Below are positions 7,787 through 36,026 of a stretch of 64,000 bases of DNA, piece by piece; position 1 is the stretch's first letter, and every line of letters begins with the position of its first letter. The DNA comes from Xylographa opegraphella (Eukaryota). Position numbers and translations under genes: made by a program. The stretch is taken from positions 124,001 through 188,000 of the forward strand of contig JALDZX010000015.1 in the NCBI GenBank assembly GCA_022813865.1, written 5' to 3'. A model generated the notes under the pieces. That model worked only from the letters and a program-made list of their open reading frames with translations, was not told the DNA's origin and did not search any database.

Positions 7787-7792
7787 NNNNNN
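7787..7792. other. Assembly gap (6 N) inside a poly-C tract
   Basis: nnnnnn flanked by C homopolymers. Confidence 1.
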
Positions 7793-20417: not shown

Positions 20418-23400
20418 TCACAGCCCCAGCATCTTCTTTCCCGCGCCCGCAGCACCCGACGCCCGCCCCGCGACTTCTCCAGCCGCCCCAGCCGCCTTAC
20501 CCGAAGCCGCCTCCCCCGCGCTCCCCACCGCACCGCCAACAGCCGAAGCGCCCTTGCCCAGCTGCTCGGGCGCCTGGCCCGCGGTCTGCACGCCAGCCTT
20601 GGTCGCATCACCAGTAGTATCGACGGCCGTGGCTCCCGCGTCTCCCACCATGCCGGCCGCGTTCTCCGGGGTGACGCCCACAGCGTCCACGACGTCCTCC
20701 GCCGTCTGGCCCACCCCCTCCGGCGCGCCGGCGGTGTCGAGCGCTGTGGCGGCACCGGCGCCGACCGTGTCAGTGGTGCCTTTGGCTACAGAGCCGGTGG
20801 TCGAGGCCGCGTTCGCCACGGTCGTGCCGCCGGCGTCGGTGGCTTTCTTGCTAGCGGCGCCGGCCGTGTCCGTGGCTGCTTGCTGCGCCGCCGAGGCTTG
20901 ACCAGCAGCGTCGGCGGCTTTGGCGCTGACATCTTCGTCCGGTTTGGCGGGATTCTTGCTACTGGACCATGTGGGCAATGACGGGAGGTACGAGGTTGCT
21001 GAGGCGATGTAGCCGGTGGATTCGCCTTTGGCGGCATCGACCTTGCCGGAGACTTTATCGGTAACGCCCGTGGCTTTCCCGGCTGCTTCTCCGCTCGCGC
21101 TGTGCCACGACGGGAGATACTTTGCGGCGTAGAGGGCGATCTGGGTCAGGTAGCCCGGGCCGACCTCGCTGATGCCCTCTTTCGCCAGGTCGGGATTCTT
21201 GCTGCCCGACCGCTGGAGGTAGAGCTTGTCCTTGGCATACTGGTAGTACGTCTTCGTACTCTTCGACCCCGCGACGGCGGCGTCGTCAGCGACATTGGCA
21301 CCGGACTTCAGAGCCTTTGCTCCGAGGTCGGCAACCTCGTCCGGATCCGCAGGGGCTGCTCTGCTGATGTAGAGCTGCTCGCTCGCCCACTGCATCATAC
21401 TCTTCTGATTCTTCCGCTGAATCTCCTCCTCCATACTATCGGCCTCCTGCTCCGCATCTCTATCACTAACCTCTTTCTTGCCCAGGTAATTTTGGCTCTT
21501 CTCCTTGGCCTGCCGGATCAGATCCTGCTCCTTCTCTTCCGCCAGCATAGTCTCAAACGCCGCTTCCTCATTCCTGATCTCCTCCTTGTCGATGTCCTGC
21601 AGCCCGATCTTTTGCAGGATCTTGCCGATCAGGAACCGGTACCGCAGGTGCCCCGACACCGTCTCGCTGACGTCCACGTTCTCCACCCCAGTGAGACCTT
21701 CGATCTTGGAGAGGCCAGCGACGCCGTATTGTATGGAGCTGGTCCGATAGAGAAACGCCAGGATGCGGTCTTTCTCGGAATACACGTTGATCAGTCTGCC
21801 GGTGCACGCGGATCGCAGGAGCCTCCAGTTGGCGGTATCGGATGGGGTGGGAGCGCCAATGAGAATCGCGGACTCGACCAGACCGAATGCTTTCCTGTTT
21901 GCCAGACTCGCGAGACAGGCATATATAAGTCTCGCGCCCATCGAATAGCCTATCAGCGTAACTGATCGTTCGCCTTGAGCTCTGTTTATAAGAGCATCGG
22001 CTAGTATCTCTCCCGCTTTGTCCGCCCTAGATTTTGCGAGCGTAAACGGGTTGTCCACAACTCTAGCAACCTTGACCAAGCCCATTGGCCAGATCATCGA
22101 CGACATGAGCTCTGCAAAAACAGTCCTCTGTATAATTTGACTCTGAGCATAGCCTGTAGATACCCATTAGCGATTCGTAGCTCCCCACACACACAAGTCT
22201 AGATTGATGAAACCAACCCCACGCAGCACTGCTCAGCATCGTATTCATCGAATTGCCCAAGTTCATTAGCGTCTCGAGCTCCCAGCGCAGCGCAAAGACC
22301 TCCGAATCCGTATTCAGCACCCGCCACGGCTTCACAATCTCCTCCTTCTCCGTCAACCAGCCCGTGACCCCGATCGTCACTCGAAGGCGCCGTTCCTCCG
22401 ACGCGGCTTCCTTGTCGTCCGAGAACTCCTTGCGTCGCCCGTGTATCGGTAGGAAGGCAAAATCCTCAACCTCGCGCGAGAGGTTGTCCATCATCTGCCC
22501 GGTCATCTTGCCGCCGTAGGCCCCGAACAAGGCGCCCACCAGATACGTGCTACCCGCGACGCTTCCGAGATCTGAAGAGCACTGGTGTTAGCGTTACGGG
22601 GTCTCTTTCTCAATGGGGACGCGCATGGCGGGACTGACACCCTGCTGCTGCCGTGGCACCCAACCCAAGACCACCCATCACAGCCCCGACTCCGGAAGCG
22701 ATCATCGGAGCGGCCATTCCGCCGCTGATGCCAATGACAGCGGCGCCCGCAGCAGTCGCCGCAGCCATCTTCCACTTCCTTGACTTCTCACTCGCGGCGA
22801 CTTTGTTCTGCGCCTCCTCGTCCGCGTTGATCTGCTGCGCGGATTCCAACAGCCCCTTGGCCACCTTCATCTCTTCGGTCCCGAGGGCACGTAGCCCGAG
22901 TTTGAGGCTCGAGGCTAGGAATAGCAACAGCACCCGAGATCGGGCACTGTAGTTCTCCAGGCTGATCAACAGGAGCAGAACGGAGTGTAGGATCAGAGTC
23001 CGCTTCGCCATCGTGAGCTTCGTGAGCGGCGTGCGGACGCGAGGGAACACATCCTCCAGCTTCGGGGCGCTCCGCTCAGCCTTGTCCGTGGTCAGTGGCC
23101 CCTTCTGCGGCTCTTTCTGCGTCGTGGTTGGCGGCCGCCCGTCACTGTTCGCCGCTTCATCCATCTGCTTCTCGGCGTCTTGCTGCAGGTGCACCGCCTC
23201 CGCAGCGCGCTTCATCACCGCACGGCGCCATCCGTCGAAGTTCTGGAGACTCTCTTCTTTGAGTTTCTGGAACTTGGGGCCCGCGAGCTCTTTCTCGATG
23301 TCGGCAAGTTTCTTCTTCTCTGCATCGTAAGCCCCCACGTCCACTGTGCCGATGTCTAGATCAGGATTGTTGATCTTGTCGTCTTCGCTCTTGCCCACGT

Positions 23401-23614
23401 CTCCAATTAAGTCTCTGTCCAGCCCCGCGGCAGGATCGAAGTTCGCCGAGATAGATTCCCGCATGCGTTGGGTGATGGTGCCGATAAGGAGGGTGAAGTC
23501 GGCGCATTGCGCTTCGTCTAGGAAGGTTGTGAGATCTTGCTCTGAGTCTGGCTTCTGGGGTGCCACAGTCTTCTCCGGCTGTTTGTCCTCTCCATCTCCT
23601 ACGTTGTCAGACAT
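20418..23614 (-). CDS. DUF726/TMCO4-family alpha/beta-hydrolase-like membrane protein (Mil1-like), 3 exons, with an Ala/Gly/Thr-rich C-terminal extension
   Basis: YSARSRVLL, glycine-rich hydrophobic segment GAAVIGISGGMAAP..GALFGAYG, VEDFAFLP, VFALRWE, GERSVTLIGYSMGARLIY (GxSxG), DVSETVSGHLRY. Introns near 22.57-22.64 kb and 22.16-22.22 kb splice in frame. Confidence 0.9.
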
Positions 23615-24697
23615 GATCAGTATTTCTATCGCAATCGATCCGGCGGCGAGGTCGGTGATGGCCGGGTAGGATCGGACTTACAGGCTGCTGTGCGTTGCGA
23701 TTATTTCAGGAGCCTGTTATTTCGAGCTTCCATTTCGACGTCATTGGCCTCGTGTGGTTCCCATGAGCAAGAAGCAGGGTCCTGGGATGATCCTGGGTGT
23801 GTACCGTTTCTAGTCTGTGCAATTGATCGCTTTGCGTTTTGTAGCAGATATATGACATCTTGTGCCTAGCTTCTTGATACTATCTGATCTAGCCTGCGTC
23901 TTTAGCAGTACCGTGCGGCCTATTCTCCTATTCTCGAGAATAATGGAGGGTGATTGGACGTTGAAAGGCTCCCTCGGGCGAGATGTACAAGTGACCGCCT
24001 TACCAAATTCAGCCTAGGCTTTCCGAGAGCAAAGCCCCGCTCCCGCCCTGCTCGGATCCCGGTATTCGACATGATCGCAAGATCCTTAACCATGGCACGG
24101 GGAAGCAGATAAACGAGGATGATGGCGTCACCAGTGAAGTATTCCTGGTTTCACTCGTGGCTTATGAGACGATTTGTCTTGTTTTCCTCTCGGTGGGATT
24201 GTACTATGTCCCAGCTCTACCAATCGCTGCAAGCGCTGAATTCTTATCTTGATAAGTCTCATGTACTTTCTTCTACAAATGCCTGTTGTTGTAGCCCTTC
24301 CTGCCACTACAAAGTCATGTACCGCTCTTCTTTTTGTCTTGATATGATTTACCAGCTATACAGAGTAGTACTTCGCCATGCGAAGCCACCTCCACCGATG
24401 AACAGAAAATAACCCGACATCTCCGCCCATGTAGATCCGTCGATATACAGCGACGGCCGTTTAGCGGTCCTTGTTTTCCGATAACAGGAACATGTTTAAC
24501 ATACGATGGCGTCGAGAAAACCAACGCTATCCTTGACCGTGGTAGTCGCCTCCGCCACACGGAAGATAACAACAAAGCGGTGGTGTCTGTGAACGTTGCA
24601 GCACGAGCGAGGGGATACGTTTATCACACCCTCCTTTACCATTACCGCTCCGCTTCATCCTCAGGTACAGCGGTATCTTGGAGGTACACAGTAAGCT

Positions 24698-25402: not shown

Positions 25403-25940
25403 AAAGAATGGGGGAGATGGTTGGAGGGAAGGTCGACACAGATATGACTCCTGCCCCACACGAAGGAGAACCGCAGACAATAATATCAAAGCGGCAAAAG
25501 TGGAATATCTTGTACAAAGTGTTAGCGGGCCTGTGCTGGTCAGTGAGGTTGGGGATGGCTAGTGGATAAAACTCTCATCCTGTACGGAGGATAGGGAACT
25601 GGATTCTGCTATAGTCTAAAGCTATGGCTTCTGGCGCCGCTAGAGTGCCCATTCTGGATTGATCATCGCGCATGATATACACCAGAACAAATCTGATATT
25701 TTATCATCTCTCAAACTACCGCATGACAGCTCGAAAACCGTAATATATCCGTTAGCGGCATGGATTGAAGCAGCCGATTTTGCGCAAGAGAGCGACTCTA
25801 ACTTTGAACTGATGAGCAAACCGGTCAACAATGAGCCTTTGATACCACACCGACGCTATCTTGAAAATGTTTGGCATTTGAAGAAAGCGGAAGCAGGATG
25901 CACCTTAGTCAGCTGGTAGGCACAAGAGACCTTGTTTCGG

Positions 25941-27195
25941 TCACTCGCCATTAACAGGCTTATGACAGACGGTCACTTTTTCCTGAAAATAGCTGGGCCG
26001 GCCATCCTCGTAGACGATTTCCATTTTGGGGTCTTTCTTGAAATCACCCATCGGTGCGCTCAACCACTCGCCATCCGCCATCAAAGCAACGCTACAATGC
26101 CACGGTGTCGTGAACCCAGTCTTGGTATTGAGCAAGCTCATGGACACCTTGTGCTCGCCTGTCGATTGATGGATAGAGAGTCGTAAATAATTGGGAAAGG
26201 CGTCTTTGACCGCCCCAGCGAAAGCCTGTATGGGAGATGGTTAGCTGGAGCTACCCATCATTCATGACATCCCGGTGGGGGCTAGTGGTTTGTGAGACTT
26301 ACGTATCCCCGAATCAGCATCTCCTTGGCGAGATACTTCACGTCCCGCTTGTAACGACTACTCGTCCTATCCTTGCCGGTTGGAAAGATATATTGCAAGT
26401 CAGACTCGAGGAATCTCCGATACCCGCGATATGTCATCAGTGTGTCAGGCTTCGTGGCAATTTCGTGGTCGATGTCGAGGTCATCCTTGCCATATTTGTT
26501 GAGGAGAAATCGGCGGAAGTTGGTAGCGTTGGCGACGTAGGTGATCTCTCCAAATTTCTCTGGTAGGGGAAACTTGACAAGATCTCTGAGTCTGGAAAAG
26601 TCAATGTGTGTGAACCTCTTTTCCGTAGCCATGGTGCGTAAAGCCTCTCCGTAGGCCCAAGTATCGCGATCTGGTATACCCAATAAGTCTATAGAATACA
26701 ACAACGCTGATTAGCAAGAAGACTTAGAGTCGAGACAGCTGAGTGGATAATATAGCTGTACAAACCATTGTAAACGAGGCCATCCGAAATGATAGTAAGT
26801 TTAGCGCCCGGCGGGTATATATCCGTTATACGCACACACATTGTGTTCAACCGTTCTAAGGCCAGCTCCTCGGCCTTGTCCGGTAGAATACCGAAAACTT
26901 TATACACCTTGTTTGCTGACTTGAACGGGAACGCTGGCAGACACATATCAACCCGCTTCCCGGTTGTGACGAATTGGTCAATGACTGACAAGAACTTGGG
27001 TGTGCTTGCGGCGAGCCGTTGTATAGTGTCATCGAATTTGTTGAGGGCGTACTCAAAGATTATGGCTAAGATCTGAGTGGAGATCTCCGCTCCCTCCATT
27101 TTCCACCCTATCGTGTCATAGGAGTCAAAGGAAGTTTTCTTGTCGTCCAGAGCCAGCCTCATGGCATCATCTGTAACTTGAGCAAGGACCTCCAT
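25941..27195 (-). CDS. Isocyanide synthase (Dit1/PvcA/IsnA family), stand-alone; exons 27195-26766, 26688-26303, 26225-25941
   Basis: Spliced product has the family motifs LPAFPFKSAN, KVFGILPDKAEELAL, IYPPGA..IISDGLVYNDLLG, YLRLSIH and TTPWH. Both introns are GT-AG with GCTAAT/GCTAAC branch sites. Confidence 0.93.
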
Positions 27196-29206
27196 GATGG
27201 CAGAGACTGAATAGGGAGTGACAAATCTGATCCGAGAAAACCCAGGAATAATTAAATAAAAAGAGGAACCACAATGAGACTTAAAGCTAAGAGAGCCAAC
27301 AATAGCTAGAAGAGATGTACCCGTCAAATTGACAGTCGACTTTCAGAGAACTGTGTGCATAGAGCACGGCATCGTGGCTGAGTAATCTTTCCGCCTTCCT
27401 GATTTTGTCACATTCGCTGAGCCGCTTCTGATAGTAGCCTAAAGCAAACCCACTGTTCTCATAGGAAGCCTTGTACTATCATCCCGAGGCTACTTACTTC
27501 GGCATCAGGGATGATGATCCCCAGCCTAGTTCAGAGTATTTCTCATCATTTTAGAGTAAGTCTTGCGCATTATGAGTATCGTCATATTTATTATTACTCC
27601 ACTGTTAGTGCTGACGAAGGATACGTATTACATGTCCACCGCTTTGCGTCACCTCGAGATCCTTCCCGCGGGATAGTTTGCATCGGAGCATGAGATTTTC
27701 ACGATGCAAGGACGGTGGCGATAATGAGCGTTAATATCCTAGCAAAAGCGTGCGGACCAAGTTCTTGATCAGACCTAGCTGGGTTTCGTATGACCCAAGC
27801 CGTGAAACTAAATTTTGACATAATCTTCAACGAGGCCATGCTGATTGGCCACGTCAGGAAGGCGAAGGAAGGCGCTCCATAACCCAGCAGCCAAGACAAG
27901 CAACAGCGAATAACATTCTATCAAATGAAGTCTTTCACACTATCAATGGCGAGATGAGCATTGACGGAATAGAGTACACCCCGGAAGGTGTGTAACAATA
28001 CTTGATGGAGATGGACTGGGCGGTACAAGGTAAGCATACTCAAAATACTACGACAACCTCAAGCGAAGCAAAGCGAGTATGTAGTAATAGATTTGATCCT
28101 TAAGTAGTGCACGAGACAAGAGACATACCAAACATAAAGACTAGCATAAACAGACGCAAGGTAATGTAAGATCACAGATCTTCTTCCAAGATGTGGATAC
28201 CAATAGTACTCACGGGACAGCGATTGATAGGTAAGAAAGCAAGCTCCACAAGGAATGAAGACGTTTAGAGGTTAGTTCTCATCAATCTCGAAAGGTGCTC
28301 TACCCAGCTGCTTTGTAGCATAGTCATCCAAAGGACCAAGTAAGGTAAGGTAGTTCGGCTTACTAGCGTCTGCCATGAAAATGCGGCTGATAGCGGGCGG
28401 GACGGTCCCGGGCCCCTAGATCATCCAACGTTACCTTAGCGTTCCAATCCGCGTTACACTTAGCGGCGCAGCCTGTAGTCAGCAGCCTAGCATGGGCGTA
28501 CAAAGTACAAGGACTTCTGTATCAACCTCCCCGAGTAATAAAATCTCCGTTGTGGGGCTCGTGCGGAACAACGAACCAATGGTAATGACCTCAAACCTTC
28601 TCAAATACAGTCAGCCGGAGGACGGTGATCACTTCGCCTTGTCTGGTCCACCAAGTAATGGTCCATCATGATCTAGGCGAGATGGCTGGGAACGGCCGAG
28701 ACCGTTCTTTGGCAGTAAAACGCATCCTGTTCCAGGCGAGCTACCCAAATTCTAAACAAGGCAATCGAGCAAAACCAGTTAGAAAGGAGCTTTGATACTC
28801 GCGGACTTGGTAATTTGCCACTGGAGATAGAAGGAGCGTCTTTTCGCCGAAGGCAGCAGCAGGCCGCTTGCCGTTACGCCCCGGTATAGGCTCTTTTCGG
28901 CTGGCTTGAGATACTGTTTCGGGAGAGCTATGTTTCTATTCCCGGATATGTTATTTGTGTTGTGATGCTGTGATTCCTGTGTGAGGTGATATATCATCCT
29001 GTGAGACAATGGGTGTAGCCGTGTCCGCTACCCTGAGCACTCCAGCTCTTTTACTTACCTCTTTTCAAGCATTCAATACGTCTTCAATGTGGTACACGAG
29101 AGGATGATTGGTTCTATGATGCACTAAATCCGATGTTTCTATAGTGCGAAACAAGATCCTCGGACTCGTTGAGGCCAAAACCGATCAGGTCCACTACTCC
29201 CCAGGA

Positions 29207-32200
29207 TTATCCCATAAACCTAGCGTATTGGGTGAATTCTTCATCCTTTGTCAGCATGTCAAGCTCTTCAGGGAGTGTTCCCAGTAGCAGCTCAACACCG
29301 CCGTCATCGCGCATTGGAAGGATAATCAAGAGCCGAAACGCTGTGTTGAACCGGTCCATCTGCAAACGCATGGTGTCGGGTACGCCTTCGTTGGCAAAGA
29401 ACTCACCGCCAAACGAGATTTCGCCCGTCTGGAAGAGCATCAGATTATTCATCATGGCGTGCATACCCGCGAGGCCCATACAGGCGTTGGTGAGCATGCT
29501 GTAGTCGGGTACAGATTGCAGAAGCGTGAACGCATCGTGCACAAGCGATGGGGTGATACGCGTAGCAGCCTCGCGGACAAGATATGCAATGCGCCCGATA
29601 CTCGTCTCTGGTGCGCAGAGCTCCTCCACGGACATGTAAGGACGATTTGTCACAAGACAACTGCCCATGTAAGACGATGGCAGCAAGGAAGAGAAGTACG
29701 GGCGGGCATCAATGGGCATCTCCATAATGGATATATCTTCAGGTGCGAAAGTCTCCCCTCGGAGCTCCTTTGCCACGCGGTATCGCGCTTTGATCGCTGC
29801 CCGCCAGAAGAAGGCTTGTACAATGTCACTGATGGATGTTACGGCACCCTTAGCTTCTGGGTCAGCAAGCACCTTCTGCTGTAGCTTCTTCACATTTTCG
29901 GGCGGAATGAAGAACGTGGTTGACTTCATGTGGCGGCCATCCGCAGGAGGGATTGGTGGCCAGGCAAACTTCCGAGGGAAAGGAGGTGCTGGAGGGAGAG
30001 CTGATTGTGTTGGACCGGCCTCAATCTTGACTGTGCTGTTTCCATTTTGAAGCTCGGCTGGGTTTGAAAATCCAAGAAATCCCCATACCTGGGGATCTAC
30101 CTCGTGAGCTGGCTTAGCGTACCCTTCTAGCTCGTATAGGATATGCGGCAAGCTGCGATTCAGACTTTCGGGGTCTAACCAGCTGCACGTTGCTGAGGTA
30201 TCGCCTTGAACATATCTGCAACTTTCAGCCCAAACCCTCATTGCGGTGATGACACCAGAACCATCAAAACCTGCGTGGTGAACATTTATAGCGAGGATGC
30301 AGCCACCCTTGACAAAGTTGGCCTGTGCAATCAAGACGTCGCTGGGCAACGGCGGGAACCAGGGGTAATCAAGGACGACTTCGTCTTTGAAAGCCGAGGA
30401 CACGAACCCGGCAGCTTGCAACTCCTCGAAGGATGGGAGGATTTCGGATAGATCCTTGTAGCGCAGCTGCCTTGGGCTCACATCAGACTCCATGAAATTG
30501 CTTTCTGGAGTAGCAGTCGACGCAATGAGAGGAAGAGTGATGCGAAGATCACCCTTCTTGTACCCCATTTCGTGTTCCGAGCACCGCATCACTTTACCCT
30601 CGAGCTCCGGAATCAGTTGTATTGTGCGGCGAAGACCCTCCTGTAGTCTCGCAAAGACCTGTTCGAAACGGGCTTCTTCGCGCAGAGGGAAGTAAAACTT
30701 CATTCCCACATAGATGTTAGGATTCATAAGATCAAAGGGGTTTACCTTGGGTGAGAGTCGCGACTTGTGCAAGGCCATCATTTTGTTCATCGTGGCAACA
30801 CCCGTGTTAGCGGGCTCGTTCGAAGACGTACCATTGGCCATCGTCTTTCTCGCCTCGGCTACCAATCTTGCTATGCTGGCGGAAAACTTGGCAAGGGTAG
30901 GGCTTGCGTAAAGATGTCGAGGAGAGAGTCGGTCGTGCAGGCCAGTGGCAGTCCGGATAGATTTGACAGCCCGAAAAACGAGGAGTGAGTCGAGTCCCAG
31001 ATTAAACATATCCTCGTCCGGCGACATGTTTTTGAGCTCAGGCGATAGGGAACCAAAGACGTAACGGATAGCGTGCATTATGGAATCAACTGAGCTTGTG
31101 TCAATTGTCAGGAACTGTGTATCCTCCTCCTCTAGCCGAGAGCGGTAGAAGCGCTCAATATAATCAGCGTACAATATGAGGGTAGCGCGTCGCTTGACGG
31201 TCCCCTTGTCGGTCCGAACAAATGGCTTTTCCGGCTCTGCAAAGGTGATGTAATCCCTCTGCAATTGATTCTTATGCAGAGATATCGCGTTGGCTCTTTC
31301 TATCGTCGACCATATGCTATTGAAGAGCTCATTGTTCCCTGATGCTGGATTTTTCAACTCGATAAGCAAGCCGGCCTGAGGCTTTCCCGTACCGATCTGT
31401 AGGATACTCTTCCTTCAGCTTTGGGGTCTTTCTTCATTTCTAGGGACTGAGGGCAAGGGAAGCTTGAGGAAGGCTCACTTACCACAAGGCAGCCTTCAAT
31501 TGCAGGATGCGTCGTAACTAAGGCTTCCGTATCCAAGGGTGATATCTTGTAACCGTTTGACAGAACAACGATATCGTCGTTTCTTCCCTTATAAGCCCAT
31601 AGATTCGGCTTGGTAGGATGCTTGGCGTACAGATCTTTGAAATTGATAATTGTCTGGTCGGGAAATGTGTAAAATATGCCCTGGAATAGAGGCGCATGCT
31701 CATTACGATGTACCCAGTGCTCATATATACCAGGCTCCACCTCCTTGAATTCAAAGCCGGAAAAGGGGTGGAAGGCAAAGTAGAGCCAATCTTCCCGGGC
31801 TACCCAAAGATTACCGATAAACAAACCCTCGGTTGTGCCAGTCAAGTTCAGGACTCGGACCACGTCATTTACTTTGCCAGCACTAGTAGGACTGACGGGA
31901 CCTTGAATGTGATGTACATTAGTGTATGATCATGAGAGAAAGAGACAAGGTTCGGTGGGGGCAATTTGGTGGAAGGCGTGTGCTCACCGCCAGACGCGCA
32001 GATAAATTTCGACGACTTGAACTTAGCCAAGACGTCTGGAATTTCGCCCAGCTCATCGACCAACGACGGAATCATACTCCAGATGTCAATTCTCGCATGC
32101 TCTGCCAGAGACTCGATGAGGTTCATGTTGGGTATCACACCGGCGGGCCCCATGATGCAGTGCAGGCGGAAGAGTGAAGGCAAGAGGATATTCATAATAA

Positions 32201-33130
32201 TACCGGCTCCCTATAAAGTTCAATAAGTCATGCACTCTTCAGAACAGTCATGAAAAGGGACGCATACGTGGCTCATGGGGAATGATGAGTATATCCTATC
32301 ACCGTCCTTCCAATCAGACGTCCAAGGTACCATACCACCGTCGCTTTCAGTTTGCGGAAGCAGCCGCACAGCATCCATTGTGCTAATCAAACCGTGAGAC
32401 CATGCTATGGGCTTGGGTAATCCCGTCGAACCAGAGGTATGCAGGAGGCAGAATGGGTCTGTAACAGATTCTTCAAAAGTCTTATTATACGGATAGGGCT
32501 CGGTCGCTTCGGCATTGAGTAACTCGTCCAGTTCAGGGAGATCGAGTACTTTCATCAGGCGTTGCCGTAGGAAGTCTTCCACCAAGCGGGAAGTCGTACC
32601 GCAAGGCTTGACCCAGACATTGCATGCTGCTGCTTCAAGGATTGCTAGTGCCCCTTCAATGCTGTTCTTTGGAGAGAGAAACAAGGCCTGCGTGGGAAAT
32701 AAATAATTTTAGCGTCAGCCGGCACAACTGTGCGCGCTGGGTCTCGTGATGTGGAAGGTCCTGAACGTACAGTGTAGCCGGCCTTGACGCACGCGTACGT
32801 TAATAAAATGTGTCGAAGATCATCTAGGTATTGTTAACTGCGTAGGCGGATAGAACACTCAATGCTTGCGGGGTCTTGTTTGCTTTCCAACTTACGAGGC
32901 CCAATATAGCCCACTGTCTGTATCACCGAGCTTTCTCCAATCTGGTTGTGGAGCCGCCAAGCGGTTTTGTCAACTGCATTCACAAATGCGCGTGCGGATA
33001 CATGACGAAATCCACAGGCTATGTCCGAAGATATCGCTATTGAGTATATAATGCGGTCTGGCTCAGTAGATGCCAGGTTGTCCATGATCTGAGGAATGAG
33101 CCTCTTGCCGTAATTCGTTGAGGTCGCCAT
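29207..33130 (-). CDS. NRPS-like enzyme: adenylation - thiolation - C-terminal CoA-dependent acyltransferase (HxxxD) domain; multi-exon
   Basis: GKRLIPQI start typical of fungal NRPS-like A domains, LHTSGSTGLPKPI (A3), GTTEG, FKDLY..HP, KGRNDDIVVLSNGYK, RTDKGTVKR (A10 Lys), carrier motif FNLGLDSL, then QANFVKGG..HHAGFDGSG and ISFGG (DFGWG-like). No reductase domain. Confidence 0.92.
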
Positions 33131-34102
33131 GGCTGCAGCAATAGCTTGGATAGGAGATAGTTGAGATGTTAGAGGCCAGGTCGAAATGACTGGAAGATTG
33201 AGATCCAGATTCGGCCACTGGAAATTCGACGGTTTGGAGGTCATGTAGTATGTAATGCAAGTAGAGTATAGGCACCGCAGCCTGGTCATTCACTGGCCAG
33301 CACATGCTGGGTTTTCCACAGTAGCGCACATAAAACTCTCTCATATTCTCTCACTCTATGCCCGCTGTAGCCGAGAGGTTACGGTAACGACAGTAAAATT
33401 GAATGCATCTTACTGACATCGCCAAATGCCAATCATGTTGTTTGAAAACATGCAGACTAAGGTACGTAAGGTAATGGTAGGCAGCATGATTACACATGTG
33501 GGTACCACATCAATTCAGGATCAATTACTGAGCTGCTATTGGGCATTCGATGCCCAGGCCATTAACCTGGTAGTCAGCAAGATGTTTCCAAACTGGCTAG
33601 TGGCACTTATGTAATTTGCCTCACACCGCTAGTTTTTCCCTAGTCGTAGTTGAGCAAGAAGGAAGACAACCGAAGGTTGTTTAAATTCTATTTCCAATTA
33701 ATCTAATATAATGGTGGGAAGGATCAGTCCAAGGGAGCCGAAAAACACACGAATCCAATGTAAGGTTTAACGGCTGGAACGCAGCACGGGTTGAAAGTTT
33801 TTCCTCGCCGAGACACAATAGCCCTTAGCGTCAAACGCTTCAAGTATGTGTATCAGGTACTGTGTAAACTTGTTGTTTTGAATGAAGGGAAAGGAAGATG
33901 TCATTTAATATTACGCTTTGTTCCCCACCAAGCTAGCTCGATTTTGGCGCGGGTAAAGTAAGAACACCTCTGGAAGTCGCCATCGCCCTGACGCTTTACA
34001 AGGTCACGGAGTAGCTCCGAGCGCGGCTATGGTTGAGCAAGTTTCAAGCAAACTACTTTGGAGTAGCAGAGGGGAGGGGCTAAAAAAATGGTGTGCTTGT
34101 AA

Positions 34103-34110
34103 TTTGCTCA
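34103..34110 (+). promoter_or_regulatory. Mac1-type copper-response element candidate (TTTGCTCA) in the NRPS-like/MFS divergent promoter
   Basis: Exact match to the yeast CuRE TTTGC(T/G)C(A/G) about 150 bp upstream of the MFS ATG. Inverted near-matches TGAGCAAG at 34034 and 33651. Confidence 0.45.
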
Positions 34111-34253
34111 AATCAATACGTACCTTCGCTATCACTCTTAACTGCAGTCGCAATCGTCTCCACAGCCTATTTTCCTTCAATCTCTTGCTGCTCAGCAGGT
34201 CGGTCCTTCTTTCTGTTCCCCCATTTCAACCCCGCTGGGTCGACAGAAAGACT

Positions 34254-36026
34254 ATGGGCGATATTCAAGATCATCAGGCTGAGCCACCGCGAGTCGATGA
34301 CGGTGCCACGGATAAGAAGTCCAACATCATGGTCAGCGACATAAGCTGTGGCCAGGGCGTACACTCGAGCTTCGACGCTGAGAAACCAGTCCATCCGGAT
34401 GCTCAGGCTGGTGTGCAGAATATCGAGGCCGTCACCTCGGTGTGGACGACAACCTCCCTGATCATTGCCTATGTGATGATATGGATCATCTACCTAGTCA
34501 TGCTTATGCAGCAAGGCGCACTGGCAGCGTTGACTCCTTTTGTAACCTCCGCCTTCCAGGAGCACTCGCTCACGCCCACCGTCGCCGTAATCAGCGGCAT
34601 CATTGGCGGTGTCTTTAAGCTTAGCCTCGCAAAAATTCTCGACATATTTGGCCGGCCCCAAGGATATTTATTGTCTGTGATCTTGGCCACACTCGGCCTT
34701 GTTATGATGGCTGCTTGCAATAGCGTTGAGATGTACGCCGCAGCTCAGGTCTTCTACACTGTTGGTCAAAACGCCTTGCTGTATAGCATCTCCATCTTCG
34801 TCGCAGACACATCCTCGTTGCGCAATCGAGGGCTCATGCTCGCCTTTGCCTCCTCGCCTAATCTTGCCACCACCTGGCTATCTGGCCCAATCTCTGAAGC
34901 CTACCTTGAGGGGCCAGGCTGGCACTGGGCCTTTGGGACATTCTCAATTGTTGTACCCATCGTTACCCTTCCGCTGTTCGGCCTTTTCGTGTGCAATTCC
35001 AACAAGGCCAGGAAGCAGGGCTTTCTTCCCAAGCACGAGAGCCACCGAACGAGCTGGCAGTCCTTCATCCACTACTGCCGCGAGTTCGACGCTGTTGGCC
35101 TCCTTTTGCTTTCTGCTGGCCTGGCGCTCTTCCTTCTGCCATTTAACATTTACACTATGCAAGAGCAAGGATGGCGTGCTCCCCTCATCATCTGCCTGCT
35201 GGTTTTCGGCATCATGCTTATCATTATGTTCATTCTTTGGGAAAGATTCTTCGCCCCTGTCACCTTCATTCCCTACACGTTACTCCTGGATCGTACAGTC
35301 CTCGGCGCTTGCGTTCTTTCCGCTACGCTCTTCATCAGCTATTACTGCTGGGCTAGCTTATTTAGCTCTTTCTTGATGGTTGTAAATAACCTAAGCATCA
35401 CTGAGGCCAGCTACGTTTCCAATATCTACAGCGTCGGTAACACCTTGTGGGCACTCGTTGTAGGCTGGCTGATCCGCCAGACTGGTCGCTACAAGCCTGT
35501 TTGTCTCTGGTTTGCTATCCCTCTACACATCTTTGGCATAGGCCTTATGATAAACTTTCGTCAGCCCGACTCCAATATTGGCTATATCGTTATGTGCCAG
35601 ATATTCGTCTCCTTTGCTGGCGGCACCATCATAATCTGTGACCAGATCGCTGTAATGGCCGCCGCCTCGCACCAGCACATTGCTGTCGTGTTGGCTGTTG
35701 AGGCCATGTTTGCTGAGGTTGGTGGCGCCGTCGGGTCTACCGTGGCGGCCGCAATCTGGCAGGACGTTTTCCTTGCGAAGCTCGCGGAATATCTTCCCGC
35801 TGAAGCGCTGCCAAACTTGGCCACCATTTATGGCGATTTGAACACACAATTGATGTACCCGGTGGGCTCGGCTACTCGTATCGCAATTCAGCATGCATAT
35901 GGTGATGCGCAAAAAATGATGTTGATTGCCGGTACTGCTATTTGGGCAGTTGGGTTTGTAGCGACGTTTTGGTGGCGAGATATCAACGTTAAGGGCATCA
36001 AACAGATAAAGGGCAATGTCATTTGA
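34254..36026 (+). CDS. MFS transporter of the siderophore-iron (SIT/Arn/MirB, CrmD-like) family, intronless
   Basis: AQAGVQNIEAVT..W, TSAFQEHSL, AKILDIFGRPQG, FVADTSSLRNRG, EFDAVG, AIQHAYGDAQ, many hydrophobic helices. Likely start MGDIQ at 34254. Confidence 0.92.
   Translation: MGDIQDHQAEPPRVDDGATDKKSNIMVSDISCGQGVHSSFDAEKPVHPDAQAGVQNIEAVTSVWTTTSLIIAYVMIWIIYLVMLMQQGALAALTPFVTSAFQEHSLTPTVAVISGIIGGVFKLSLAKILDIFGRPQGYLLSVILATLGLVMMAACNSVEMYAAAQVFYTVGQNALLYSISIFVADTSSLRNRGLMLAFASSPNLATTWLSGPISEAYLEGPGWHWAFGTFSIVVPIVTLPLFGLFVCNSNKARKQGFLPKHESHRTSWQSFIHYCREFDAVGLLLLSAGLALFLLPFNIYTMQEQGWRAPLIICLLVFGIMLIIMFILWERFFAPVTFIPYTLLLDRTVLGACVLSATLFISYYCWASLFSSFLMVVNNLSITEASYVSNIYSVGNTLWALVVGWLIRQTGRYKPVCLWFAIPLHIFGIGLMINFRQPDSNIGYIVMCQIFVSFAGGTIIICDQIAVMAAASHQHIAVVLAVEAMFAEVGGAVGSTVAAAIWQDVFLAKLAEYLPAEALPNLATIYGDLNTQLMYPVGSATRIAIQHAYGDAQKMMLIAGTAIWAVGFVATFWWRDINVKGIKQIKGNVI

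What the first reader, a model, noticed from the sequence alone, without database searches (positions are those of the whole stretch)
25941..36026. Isocyanide biosynthetic gene cluster: split CrmA-type system (ICS + A-T-transferase + SIT transporter)
Seen: three adjacent intact genes encoding an isocyanide synthase, an A-T-acyltransferase NRPS-like enzyme and a siderophore-family MFS, between a DUF726 gene and RIO1. Known: A. fumigatus CrmA carries ICS, A, T and transferase domains in one protein, makes a valine-derived isocyanide under copper starvation and is clustered with the transporter CrmD. Inference: this locus makes an amino-acid isocyanide, loads it on the carrier domain and transfers it to an acceptor such as a polyol, giving a copper-binding or antimicrobial product. 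The product is unknown. I recall split crm-type clusters being reported from lichen-forming fungi, so novelty needs checking.
Basis: partly seen in the sequence, partly recalled or inferred. Interest (0 to 1): 0.88.

Follow-up and report, generated by a model that had tools for sequence, protein, structure and literature searches.

The report
Split isocyanide gene cluster in lichen fungus
A lichen-forming fungus carries an intact three-gene set for making an isocyanide metabolite, a two-protein version of a known copper-starvation pathway of moulds, and it looks as if the whole set came from an unrelated group of fungi.

Summary
Window 25941-36026 holds three intact genes. They are a 366-aa single-domain isocyanide synthase (ICS), a 1179-aa adenylation-thiolation-transferase (A-T-TR) enzyme, and a 590-aa siderophore-transporter-like MFS. 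They lie between DUF726 and RIO1. The window is from Xylographa opegraphella, and my gene models equal the deposited proteins.

The A-T-TR protein is 54-68% identical to the matching part of 17 fused CrmA-type proteins, so "split crm-type system" holds.

It is not unusual. The same MFS / A-T-TR / ICS order appears in many Ascomycota by consecutive locus tags. Fusarium oxysporum has that order too, and there the cluster is bound by the copper regulator Mac1. A separate-gene form was already noted for a Fusarium cluster family.

The new result is phylogenetic. All three Xylographa genes group with Sordariomycete genes, not with other lichen fungi. A test that forces all lichen-fungus (Lecanoromycete) copies into one clade rejects it for A-T-TR (p 2e-52) and MFS (p 4e-6). 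It is borderline for ICS (p 0.051). Transfer of the whole cluster is the likeliest cause.

The product, copper control and the offloading step are inferred, not shown. This is a new member of a known kind, of moderate interest.

The parts
25941..27195 (-). Single-domain isocyanide synthase gene. It has 3 exons (27195-26766, 26688-26303, 26225-25941 including the stop) and encodes 366 aa.
   Evidence: Pfam DIT1_PvcA on all three exons. The spliced translation is identical to P0002. PDB PvcA 3e59 matches at E 1.6e-33.
29207..33130 (-). NRPS-like A-T-transferase gene. It has 6 exons (33130-32896, 32823-32771, 32687-32268, 32210-31988, 31901-31483, 31396-29207 including the stop) and encodes 1179 aa.
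   Evidence: Pfam AMP-binding, AMP-binding_C_3, PP-binding, TRI-like_N and Transferase. Identical to P0272. It is 54-68% identical to the A-T-TR part of 17 fused ICS-A-T-TR proteins over 1155 columns.
30860..31015 (-). Carrier (thiolation) domain with the GLDSL phosphopantetheine serine.
   Evidence: Pfam PP-binding covers residues 128-179 of exon 6. The serine is kept in 56 of 56 aligned homologues.
29219..30697 (-). C-terminal TRI101/BAHD-like O-acyltransferase domain with an HxxxD motif (HAGFD).
   Evidence: Pfam TRI-like_N and Transferase. PDB trichothecene 3-O-acetyltransferase 2zba matches at E 5.5e-15. The His and Asp are kept in 56 of 56 rows.
34254..36026 (+). Siderophore-iron-transporter-like MFS gene (crmC-like). 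It is a single exon encoding 590 aa and is divergent from the A-T-TR gene.
   Evidence: Pfam MFS_1 and TRI12. Homologues at 63-73% identity are named siderophore iron transporter mirB or MFS siderochrome iron transporter by their sources. The nearest named Atlas clusters carry the same names.
33131..34253 (.). Divergent promoter shared by the A-T-TR and MFS genes. It holds four TGCTCA cores, the Mac1/MacA-type copper-starvation element, at 33651, 34034, 34105 and 34189. One is the full TTTGCTCA at 34103-34110.
   Evidence: Four cores are seen where about 0.8 is expected; 0.8% of random placements give 4 or more in this region. It holds the only triple within 160 bp in the window. This is suggestive only.
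27196..29206 (.). A 2.0-kb spacer between the A-T-TR stop and the ICS start. No gene was detected in it. It presumably holds the ICS promoter.
   Evidence: No Pfam hit at E<=0.1 on 9 ORFs of 60 aa or more. No repeats. No ABC-transporter remnant by tblastn. It holds two TGCTCA cores, at 27955 and 29034.

Best explanation
This is an intact, minimal three-gene isocyanide biosynthetic cluster of the crm family, in the lichen-forming fungus Xylographa opegraphella.

Proposed mechanism:
1. The free-standing ICS converts an amino acid, most likely L-valine, into its alpha-isocyano acid.
2. The A domain of the second protein adenylates that acid and loads it on the carrier domain.
3. The C-terminal TRI101/BAHD-like transferase releases it by O-acylation of a hydroxyl acceptor, a polyol such as mannitol by analogy with the fumicicolins, heterocicolins and brassicicolin.
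4. The divergently transcribed siderophore-transporter-like MFS moves the product or its metal complex across the membrane.
5. Expression is probably switched on by copper starvation through a Mac1/MacA-type factor.

Shown here: gene integrity, domain content, homology to fused CrmA proteins, and conserved three-gene linkage. Inferred: substrate, acceptor, transport direction and regulation.

Evolution: the cluster was most likely acquired as a unit by an ancestor of Xylographa from a Sordariomycete close to Nectriaceae. It was not inherited with the other lichen-fungus copies.
For: Domains and intact gene models.

Homology to CrmA-type proteins:
- The best full-length representatives at 50% clustering are a 1194-aa split form (56% identity) and a 1616-aa fused form (53%).
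- Identity to the 17 fused proteins is 54-68% over 1155 columns.
- In the ICS search, exon 2 is 68-81% identical to the fused ICS-A-T-TR proteins listed.

Catalytic motifs:
- The P-loop-like motif, the GRxDD hinge, the carrier Ser, and the HxxxD His and Asp are kept in every row that has a residue there.
- The A10 Lys is kept in 55 of 56 rows.
- The motif at the usual position of the amino-binding Asp reads FPMSH in all 54 ungapped rows. This fits a substrate without a free amine. The motif assignment is from recall.
- The TR domain resembles Tri101, an O-acyltransferase.

Conserved linkage, read by eye from the 120 rows listed per call:
- ICS and A-T-TR carry consecutive locus tags in 10 species.
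- MFS and A-T-TR carry consecutive tags in 8 species.
- All three are consecutive in 5 species other than the window.
- In several other species the three genes sit on contigs of identical length.

Regulation precedent: F. oxysporum has the order crmC / 'transferase family' gene / crmA. That cluster is bound by Mac1 and induced without copper (PMC11563359, passages read). TGCTCA cores are enriched in the window's divergent promoter.

Product precedent: valine isocyanide and its mannitol esters depend on crmA in A. fumigatus, P. expansum and C. heterostrophus (PMC9381783, passages read).

Horizontal origin:
- In the A-T-TR tree (56 rows) the 3 Xylographa rows sit inside a 19-row set that is otherwise all Sordariomycete plus two unnamed rows (support 100), nested under further starred branches. 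The other 15 Lecanoromycete rows lie elsewhere.
- A mixture-model tree of 36 rows gives the same placement.
- MFS tree: Xylographa lies in a 21-row set with 18 Sordariomycetes (support 99). The other 24 Lecanoromycetes lie apart.
- ICS tree: Xylographa is sister to Thelonectria (support 82). The other 15 Lecanoromycetes form a clade at 98.
- AU tests of 'all Lecanoromycetes one clade' give p 1.8e-52, 4.1e-6 and 0.051.
Against: - No expression data exist; no RNA run is listed.
- No chemistry is known for any Xylographa isocyanide.
- The offloading role of the transferase domain is unproven even in CrmA. Won et al. invoke an unknown acyltransferase.
- The A domain is only weakly similar to solved adenylating enzymes (best E 1.4e-5), so its substrate cannot be read from a specificity code.
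- The promoter motif enrichment is modest. The ICS promoter shows none: 2 cores in 2 kb where 1.4 are expected.
- For transfer, the ICS AU test is not significant on its own (p 0.051).
- GC3 of the cluster genes (0.57-0.63) lies inside the range of the flanking genes (0.43-0.73), so composition gives no support.
- The clade groups were named after I had seen the trees.
- The Sordariomycete part of the trees is itself incongruent with taxonomy, so paralogy is common in this family.
- I could not test the taxonomic affinity of the flanking housekeeping genes.
- Trees used only named rows. Unnamed and short rows were left out.
- The 'careful' bootstrap search did not finish.
Confidence: 0.7

Rival explanations
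1. The function is the same, but the cluster was inherited vertically. Under this view an ancient duplicate of the crm-type cluster survived only in Sordariomycetes and in Xylographa and was lost elsewhere.
For: Nectriaceae carry two or three paralogous copies. Cylindrodendrum has g5136 and g4414, and Thelonectria has copies a and b. The ICS AU test is only borderline. Cluster gene composition is not unusual.
Against: - Xylographa is nested several strongly supported branches inside Sordariomycete diversity, not sister to it.
- The path from Xylographa to Cylindrodendrum (0.25) is shorter than between some Sordariomycete orders.
- The other Lecanoromycete copies differ very little from each other.
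- Vertical descent needs losses in Leotiomycetes, Dothideomycetes, Eurotiomycetes and most Lecanoromycetes.
Confidence: 0.22
2. The neighbours are functionally uncoupled. The ICS releases a free isocyanide, and the A-T-TR enzyme activates and transfers an unrelated acid.
For: Free valine isocyanide is detected in A. fumigatus. The role of CrmA's A-T-TR part has not been shown biochemically.
Against: The two modules are fused in one large clade and adjacent in the rest, across five fungal classes. The ICS and A-T-TR trees show the same major groupings.
Confidence: 0.08
3. The split is an annotation artefact and the two ORF sets are one gene. A. fumigatus crmA was first annotated as two genes in this way.
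For: AFUA_3G13690 and AFUA_3G13700 proved to be one mRNA (PMC5974471, passage read).
Against: - On the minus strand the A-T-TR gene comes first and ends in a stop at 29207.
- The ICS follows after 2.0 kb with its own ATG. That order is the reverse of the fused ICS-A-T-TR domain order.
- Homologues of 1178-1198 aa end at the same place.
Confidence: 0.02
4. The contig, or this part of it, belongs to a co-occurring Sordariomycete and was wrongly binned to the lichen fungus.
For: All three genes are closest to Nectriaceae outside Xylographa. I could not test the flanking genes.
Against: - Copies at 86-95% identity are deposited for five Xylographa species, on contigs of 89-444 kb.
- The cluster lies mid-contig between housekeeping genes.
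- There is no compositional break.
Confidence: 0.04

Closest known systems
Aspergillus fumigatus crm cluster (CrmA ICS-A-T-transferase hybrid, with CrmC siderochrome-iron transporter)
   Same: It has the same four enzyme domains and a siderophore-type MFS neighbour. Fused relatives are 54-68% identical over the A-T-TR part. Their ICS parts are 68-81% identical over the query exon.
   Different: - Here there are two polypeptides, and the gene order A-T-TR then ICS is the reverse of the fused domain order.
- No crmB acetyltransferase or crmD copper transporter lies in the window.
- Product and copper control are untested here.
Fusarium oxysporum crm cluster (FOXG_09769 crmC, FOXG_09770 'transferase family protein', crmA, FOXG_09772 hydrolase, FOXG_09773 crmB), a direct Mac1 target
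   Same: It has the same order: transporter, transferase-family gene, ICS gene. The Mac1 core TGCTCA is also present in the window's divergent promoter.
   Different: - The window lacks the hydrolase and crmB.
- F. oxysporum ICS proteins in my search carry an ABC-transporter N-terminal domain and fall in another ICS clade.
- That FOXG_09770 is the A-T-TR homologue is my inference from its name and position.
GCF 8 of Nickles et al. 2023 (Fusarium: single-domain ICS beside an NRPS-like gene, often with a terpene synthase)
   Same: It has a single-domain ICS and a separate NRPS-like gene with crm-type domains. The authors describe it as the closest relative of crm.
   Different: It is described as Fusarium-specific and usually holds a terpene synthase. 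No terpene synthase lies in this window. I saw only passages of the preprint, not its Fig. S4 or tables.
Bacterial PvcA/IsnA isonitrile synthases
   Same: The ICS fold family is the same: PDB 3e59 at E 1.6e-33, and 9dhm at 1e-30.
   Different: The bacterial enzymes pair with a dioxygenase. None is present here.

Membership tests
crm-type isocyanide cluster (CrmA family) | Isocyanide synthase domain (PF05141) | tested here: met
   One search finds it on three exons, E 1e-21 to 1e-34. One search matches PvcA at E 1.6e-33.
crm-type isocyanide cluster (CrmA family) | A-T-transferase module homologous to that of CrmA | tested here: met
   Domains. Identity of 54-68% to 17 fused proteins. Motifs.
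crm-type isocyanide cluster (CrmA family) | All four domains on one polypeptide (ICS-NRPS hybrid) | tested here: not met
   There are two genes separated by a stop codon and a 2.0-kb spacer, in reversed order.
crm-type isocyanide cluster (CrmA family) | Siderophore-type MFS (crmC) in the cluster | tested here: met
   Orthology to A. fumigatus CrmC itself was not tested, because that sequence was not held.
crm-type isocyanide cluster (CrmA family) | Induction by copper starvation through MacA/Mac1 | tested here: inconclusive
   Only motif counts are available: 4 TGCTCA cores in the divergent promoter, about 0.8% of random placements. No RNA run was listed.
crm-type isocyanide cluster (CrmA family) | Valine-derived isocyanide product | not testable with these tools
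   Inferred from crmA-dependent products in three species (PMC9381783).
GCF 8 (Nickles et al. 2023) | Single-domain ICS with a separate NRPS-like gene carrying crm-type domains | tested here: met
GCF 8 (Nickles et al. 2023) | Terpene synthase co-located; restricted to Fusarium | tested here: not met
   No terpene synthase was found among 79 ORFs of 110 aa or more across the window. The organism is Xylographa.
BAHD / TRI101-like O-acyltransferases | HxxxD catalytic motif and the Transferase fold family | tested here: met
   HAGFD is present, with His and Asp kept in 56 of 56 rows. Pfam. Tri101 match at E 5.5e-15.
Siderophore-iron transporter (SIT) subfamily of MFS | MFS fold with close similarity to proteins named SIT or MirB | tested here: met
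   The names are automatic annotations. A crude hydropathy count gave 12 peaks, which neither confirms nor excludes the 14 helices I recall for this family.
Siderophore-iron transporter (SIT) subfamily of MFS | Transport of a metal chelate | not testable with these tools

The most novel reading that the evidence does not exclude
An ancestor of the lichen genus Xylographa captured a complete, ready-to-run isocyanide cluster (enzyme pair plus transporter) from a Nectriaceae-like Sordariomycete. The cluster works as a copper-scavenging system: an isocyanide ester is secreted and its copper complex is taken back up through the siderophore-type MFS. This would give the first isocyanide metabolite and the first chalkophore-like uptake system in a lichen symbiosis.
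Probability: 0.25. Interest if true: 0.65.

Novelty: new member of a known kind. Interest (0 to 1): 0.42.

Why it matters
- No isocyanide has been tied to a lichen-forming fungus in the papers I could search. This locus gives a small, intact, three-gene target for heterologous expression.
- The comparison shows that the MFS / A-T-TR / ICS triad, not the fused CrmA, is the widespread form of this pathway across at least five ascomycete classes.
- The gene order (A-T-TR upstream of ICS) means the fused enzyme cannot have arisen by simple read-through of this arrangement.
- The concordant misplacement of all three Xylographa genes is a clean candidate case of whole-cluster transfer into a lichen fungus.
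- The natural split also offers a simple way to test what the A-T-transferase part of CrmA does, which is still open.

Tried and rejected
- Whole-genome search of the window's assembly: none is held.
I used the last exon with 'near' lengths instead and took fused sequences from the ICS search.
- Extra genes or relics in the gaps: 17 small ORFs gave no Pfam hit. There were no repeats. tblastn with four ICS-ABC proteins hit only the ICS exons.
- Expression: no RNA holder was listed. The only holder of the stretch may be the source sample. I laid no reads.
- Codon composition as a sign of transfer: not informative.
- A specificity code for the A domain: dropped, because the domain is only weakly similar to solved adenylating enzymes.
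- The 'careful' bootstrap tree did not finish in two 300-s calls. The quick mixture-model tree is reported instead.
- Earlier findings of this scan: none.
- The published version of Nickles et al. is not held. I used passages of the preprint.
- I did not run a complex prediction, because the report does not claim that the two enzymes bind each other.


Full report
**1. What is there**

The window is fungal DNA with short GT-AG introns. Stop-to-stop ORFs between 25.9 and 36.0 kb carry these Pfam domains:
- DIT1_PvcA on three minus-strand pieces.
- AMP-binding, AMP-binding_C_3, PP-binding, TRI-like_N and Transferase on minus-strand pieces from 32.7 to 29.2 kb.
- MFS_1 and TRI12 on a plus-strand ORF ending at 36026.

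Reading the splice sites from the sequence gave two gene models:
- A 366-aa isocyanide synthase (ICS) with three exons.
- A 1179-aa adenylation-thiolation-transferase (A-T-TR) protein with six exons.

Both translations are identical to database proteins P0002 and P0272. These are annotated as consecutive hypothetical proteins of Xylographa opegraphella, a lichen-forming Lecanoromycete. The MFS gene is a single exon of 590 aa (34254-36026).

The flanks are housekeeping genes. DUF726 lies on one side and RIO1 on the other. Further out are ALAD, a CBM21 protein, a coronin-like WD40 protein and methionine synthase.

**2. The split is real**

In A. fumigatus, crmA was first annotated as two genes and later shown to be one mRNA (PMC5974471, passage read). 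That artefact cannot apply here, for three reasons:
- On the minus strand the A-T-TR gene comes first and ends in a stop codon at 29207.
- The ICS gene follows 2.0 kb further on, with its own ATG at 27195.
- That order is the reverse of the ICS-A-T-TR domain order of CrmA.

The 2.0-kb spacer and the 2.3 kb between the ICS and DUF726 hold no detectable gene. They show no repeats and no relic of the ABC transporter that accompanies the ICS in other lineages.

**3. Relationship to CrmA**

- A scan of 1.84 billion representative proteins with the last exon (729 aa) found 93 proteins at E<=1e-30. The best full-length ones were a 1194-aa split form (56% identity) and a 1616-aa fused form (53%).
- I aligned 39 named split proteins and 17 fused ICS-A-T-TR proteins. 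Over 1155 columns the window protein is 54-68% identical to the fused ones.
- The nucleotide-binding loop, the hinge motif, the carrier serine and the HxxxD His and Asp are kept in every row that has a residue there. The A10 lysine is kept in 55 of 56 rows.
- Where amino-acid-activating A domains have, as I recall, FDxS with the amine-binding Asp, this family has FPMSH in all 54 ungapped rows. That fits an acid without a free amine.
- The transferase part resembles trichothecene 3-O-acetyltransferase (E 5.5e-15). The A domain is only faintly similar to solved acyl-CoA synthetases.
- The ICS matches PvcA at E 1.6e-33.

**4. Conserved linkage**

I read the 120 rows listed in each by eye. JGI-style tags are not sequential, so no denominator can be given.
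- ICS and A-T-TR genes have consecutive locus tags in 10 species. These are X. opegraphella, Fusarium decemcellulare, Blastenia, Pyrenodesmia sp. 3, Gyalolechia sp. 2, cf. Caloplaca sp. 3, Dirinaria, Variospora sp. 1 and Polycauliona sp. 1 and sp. 2.
- MFS and A-T-TR genes have consecutive tags in 8 species. These are X. soralifera, Cylindrodendrum hubeiense, Gyalolechia sp. 2, Blastenia, Loekoesia, the two Polycauliona and cf. Caloplaca sp. 3.
- All three are consecutive, in the order MFS / A-T-TR / ICS, in 5 species besides the window.
- In Thelonectria olida and Niveomyces insectorum the three proteins come from contigs of one length. The same holds for pairs of the three in Colletotrichum acutatum and C. 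chlorophyti, Clathrospora, Clohesyomyces, Aulographum, Oidiodendron, Purpureocillium, Ilyonectria, Naviculisporaceae sp. and Dactylonectria macrodidyma.

So the triad is a widespread cluster family in Lecanoromycetes, Sordariomycetes, Dothideomycetes and Leotiomycetes. The ICS-ABC proteins extend it to Eurotiomycetes.

**5. What is already in print**

- Won et al. 2022 (PMC9381783; sections and passages read, Supplementary Data 1 read) define CrmA as ICS-A-T-transferase. CrmB is an alcohol O-acetyltransferase, CrmC a siderochrome-iron transporter and CrmD a copper transporter.
- They show that valine isocyanide, fumivalines and mannitol esters depend on crmA in A. fumigatus, P. expansum and C. 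heterostrophus.
- They do not assign the esterification to CrmA's own transferase domain. [quoted passage not shown]
- Their list of 117 rows of homologues contains no Lecanoromycete.
- Nickles et al. (preprint PMC10153163, passages read) state that the family nearest to crm, GCF 8, is Fusarium-specific. It has a single-domain ICS beside an NRPS gene with crm-type domains. They suggest that fusion happened in other lineages. The text never mentions lichens or Lecanoromycetes.
- Palos-Fernandez et al. 2024 (PMC11563359, passages read) draw the F. oxysporum crm cluster as FOXG_09769 crmC, FOXG_09770 'transferase family protein', crmA, a hydrolase and crmB. They show Mac1 binding and induction without copper, with the core TGCTCA.
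- Searches for isocyanide with lichen, and for Xylographa with biosynthetic gene cluster, gave only counts of cluster classes.

**6. Regulation hint**

TGCTCA occurs 46 times in the window on both strands, where 44 are expected.
- Four copies lie in the 1123-bp divergent promoter between the A-T-TR and MFS genes.
- Three of them fall within 160 bp just upstream of the MFS start, and one is a full TTTGCTCA.
- Under random placement, 0.8% of trials put four or more in that region.
- It is the only triple within 160 bp in the window. A triple somewhere in 64 kb arises in 22% of trials.
- The ICS upstream region has two cores in 2 kb, which is no enrichment.

This is a lead, not evidence of control.

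**7. Phylogeny**

*Row choice.* I took named NCBI rows, plus two unnamed fused proteins and one row whose record is named after a moss. From the A-T-TR list I used rows of roughly 900 aa or more. I left out the other unnamed ENA, Logan and JGI rows.

*A-T-TR tree* (56 rows, 1155 columns, LG+G4 quick search):
- 16 of 17 fused proteins form one side of a branch. The seventeenth, an unnamed 1580-aa protein, sits among split Nectriaceae genes.
- The three Xylographa proteins form a clade (support 100) inside a 19-row set that otherwise holds only Sordariomycetes and two unnamed rows (support 100). They are nested under further branches at 99, 96 and 97.
- The other 15 Lecanoromycete rows lie on the far side.
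- A site-heterogeneous model on 36 rows gives the same result, with supports of 100, 99, 97 and 98.

*MFS tree* (46 rows, 576 columns): three Xylographa species lie with 18 Sordariomycetes (support 99). The 24 other Lecanoromycetes plus Glarea are apart (support 99).

*ICS tree* (72 rows, 328 columns): two Xylographa species are sister to Thelonectria olida (support 82), in a 23-row set of Sordariomycetes plus one unnamed fused row (support 89). The 15 other Lecanoromycetes form a clade (support 98).

*AU tests.* Forcing all Lecanoromycetes into one clade costs:

| Gene | Log-likelihood cost | p |
|---|---|---|
| A-T-TR | 559 units | 1.8e-52 |
| MFS | 230 units | 4.1e-6 |
| ICS | 40 units | 0.051 |

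The groups are taxonomic, but I named them after seeing the trees.

*Timing and composition.* Copies exist in five Xylographa species between the three searches, so any transfer predates their divergence. GC3 of the cluster genes (0.57-0.63) is within the range of the flanking genes (0.43-0.73).

*Reading.* I read this as transfer of the whole three-gene unit from a Nectriaceae-like Sordariomycete, at a probability of about 0.65. Ancient paralogy with many losses is the main rival, and a mis-binned contig is a minor one that I could not test.

**8. Mechanism and verdict**

- Shown: intact genes, domain content, homology, conserved triad.
- Inferred from established family chemistry: PvcA/IsnA-type isonitrile formation on an amino acid, adenylation and thioester loading, and CoA-like acyl transfer by a TRI101/BAHD fold.
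- Inferred by analogy: valine as substrate, a polyol acceptor, copper-starvation control, and export or chelate import by the MFS.

The locus works like CrmA but fails the single-polypeptide criterion. It also lacks the terpene synthase and the Fusarium restriction of GCF 8. It is best filed as a new member of the split branch of the crm family.

Interest is moderate. The architecture is common and already noted. The value lies in the lichen host, the minimal gene set and the cluster-level phylogenetic conflict.

Noticed in passing
proteins P0027, P0041, P0050, P0051, P0055, P0064, P0070, P0085, P0107: Many relatives have gene models of 1430-1880 aa with the ICS at the N-terminus joined to a full PDR-type ABC transporter. 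Several Teloschistaceae models carry the ICS plus only the ABC N-terminal domain. These could be true fusions or merged neighbouring genes. The window has no ABC relic.
   Followed up: partly
protein P0072 (unnamed, 1580 aa): One fused ICS-A-T-TR protein nests among split Nectriaceae genes in both the A-T-TR and the ICS tree. It lies apart from the main fused clade. It is either a second, independent fusion or a merged gene model.
   Followed up: no
window 29207-33130 and 25941-27195, minus strand: The gene order is A-T-TR then ICS, the reverse of the ICS-A-T-TR domain order in CrmA. The fused enzyme therefore cannot arise from this arrangement by loss of a stop codon alone.
   Followed up: partly
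A-T-TR tree: Lecanoromycete A-T-TR proteins from different orders are very close to each other. The Lepraria to Loekoesia path is about 0.08 changes per site. That is far closer than Sordariomycete copies are to one another. Possible causes are slow evolution, recent exchange among lichen fungi, or mislabelled metagenome bins.
   Followed up: no
window 20421-23677, minus strand: The DUF726 gene next to the cluster has a much higher GC3 (0.72-0.73) than the other genes of the window (0.43-0.63).
   Followed up: no
window 7787-7792: A run of six N lies in the sequence.
   Followed up: no
window 25813-25820, minus strand: A full TTTGCTCA copper-element match lies about 120 bp downstream of the ICS stop codon. 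It is one of five such matches in the window, where 2.8 are expected.
   Followed up: no
protein P0282: A 917-aa A-T-TR homologue (76% identity over the 729-aa query) is deposited under the moss Sphagnum balticum. It groups with Niveomyces in the tree, so it is probably a fungal sequence in a plant assembly.
   Followed up: no
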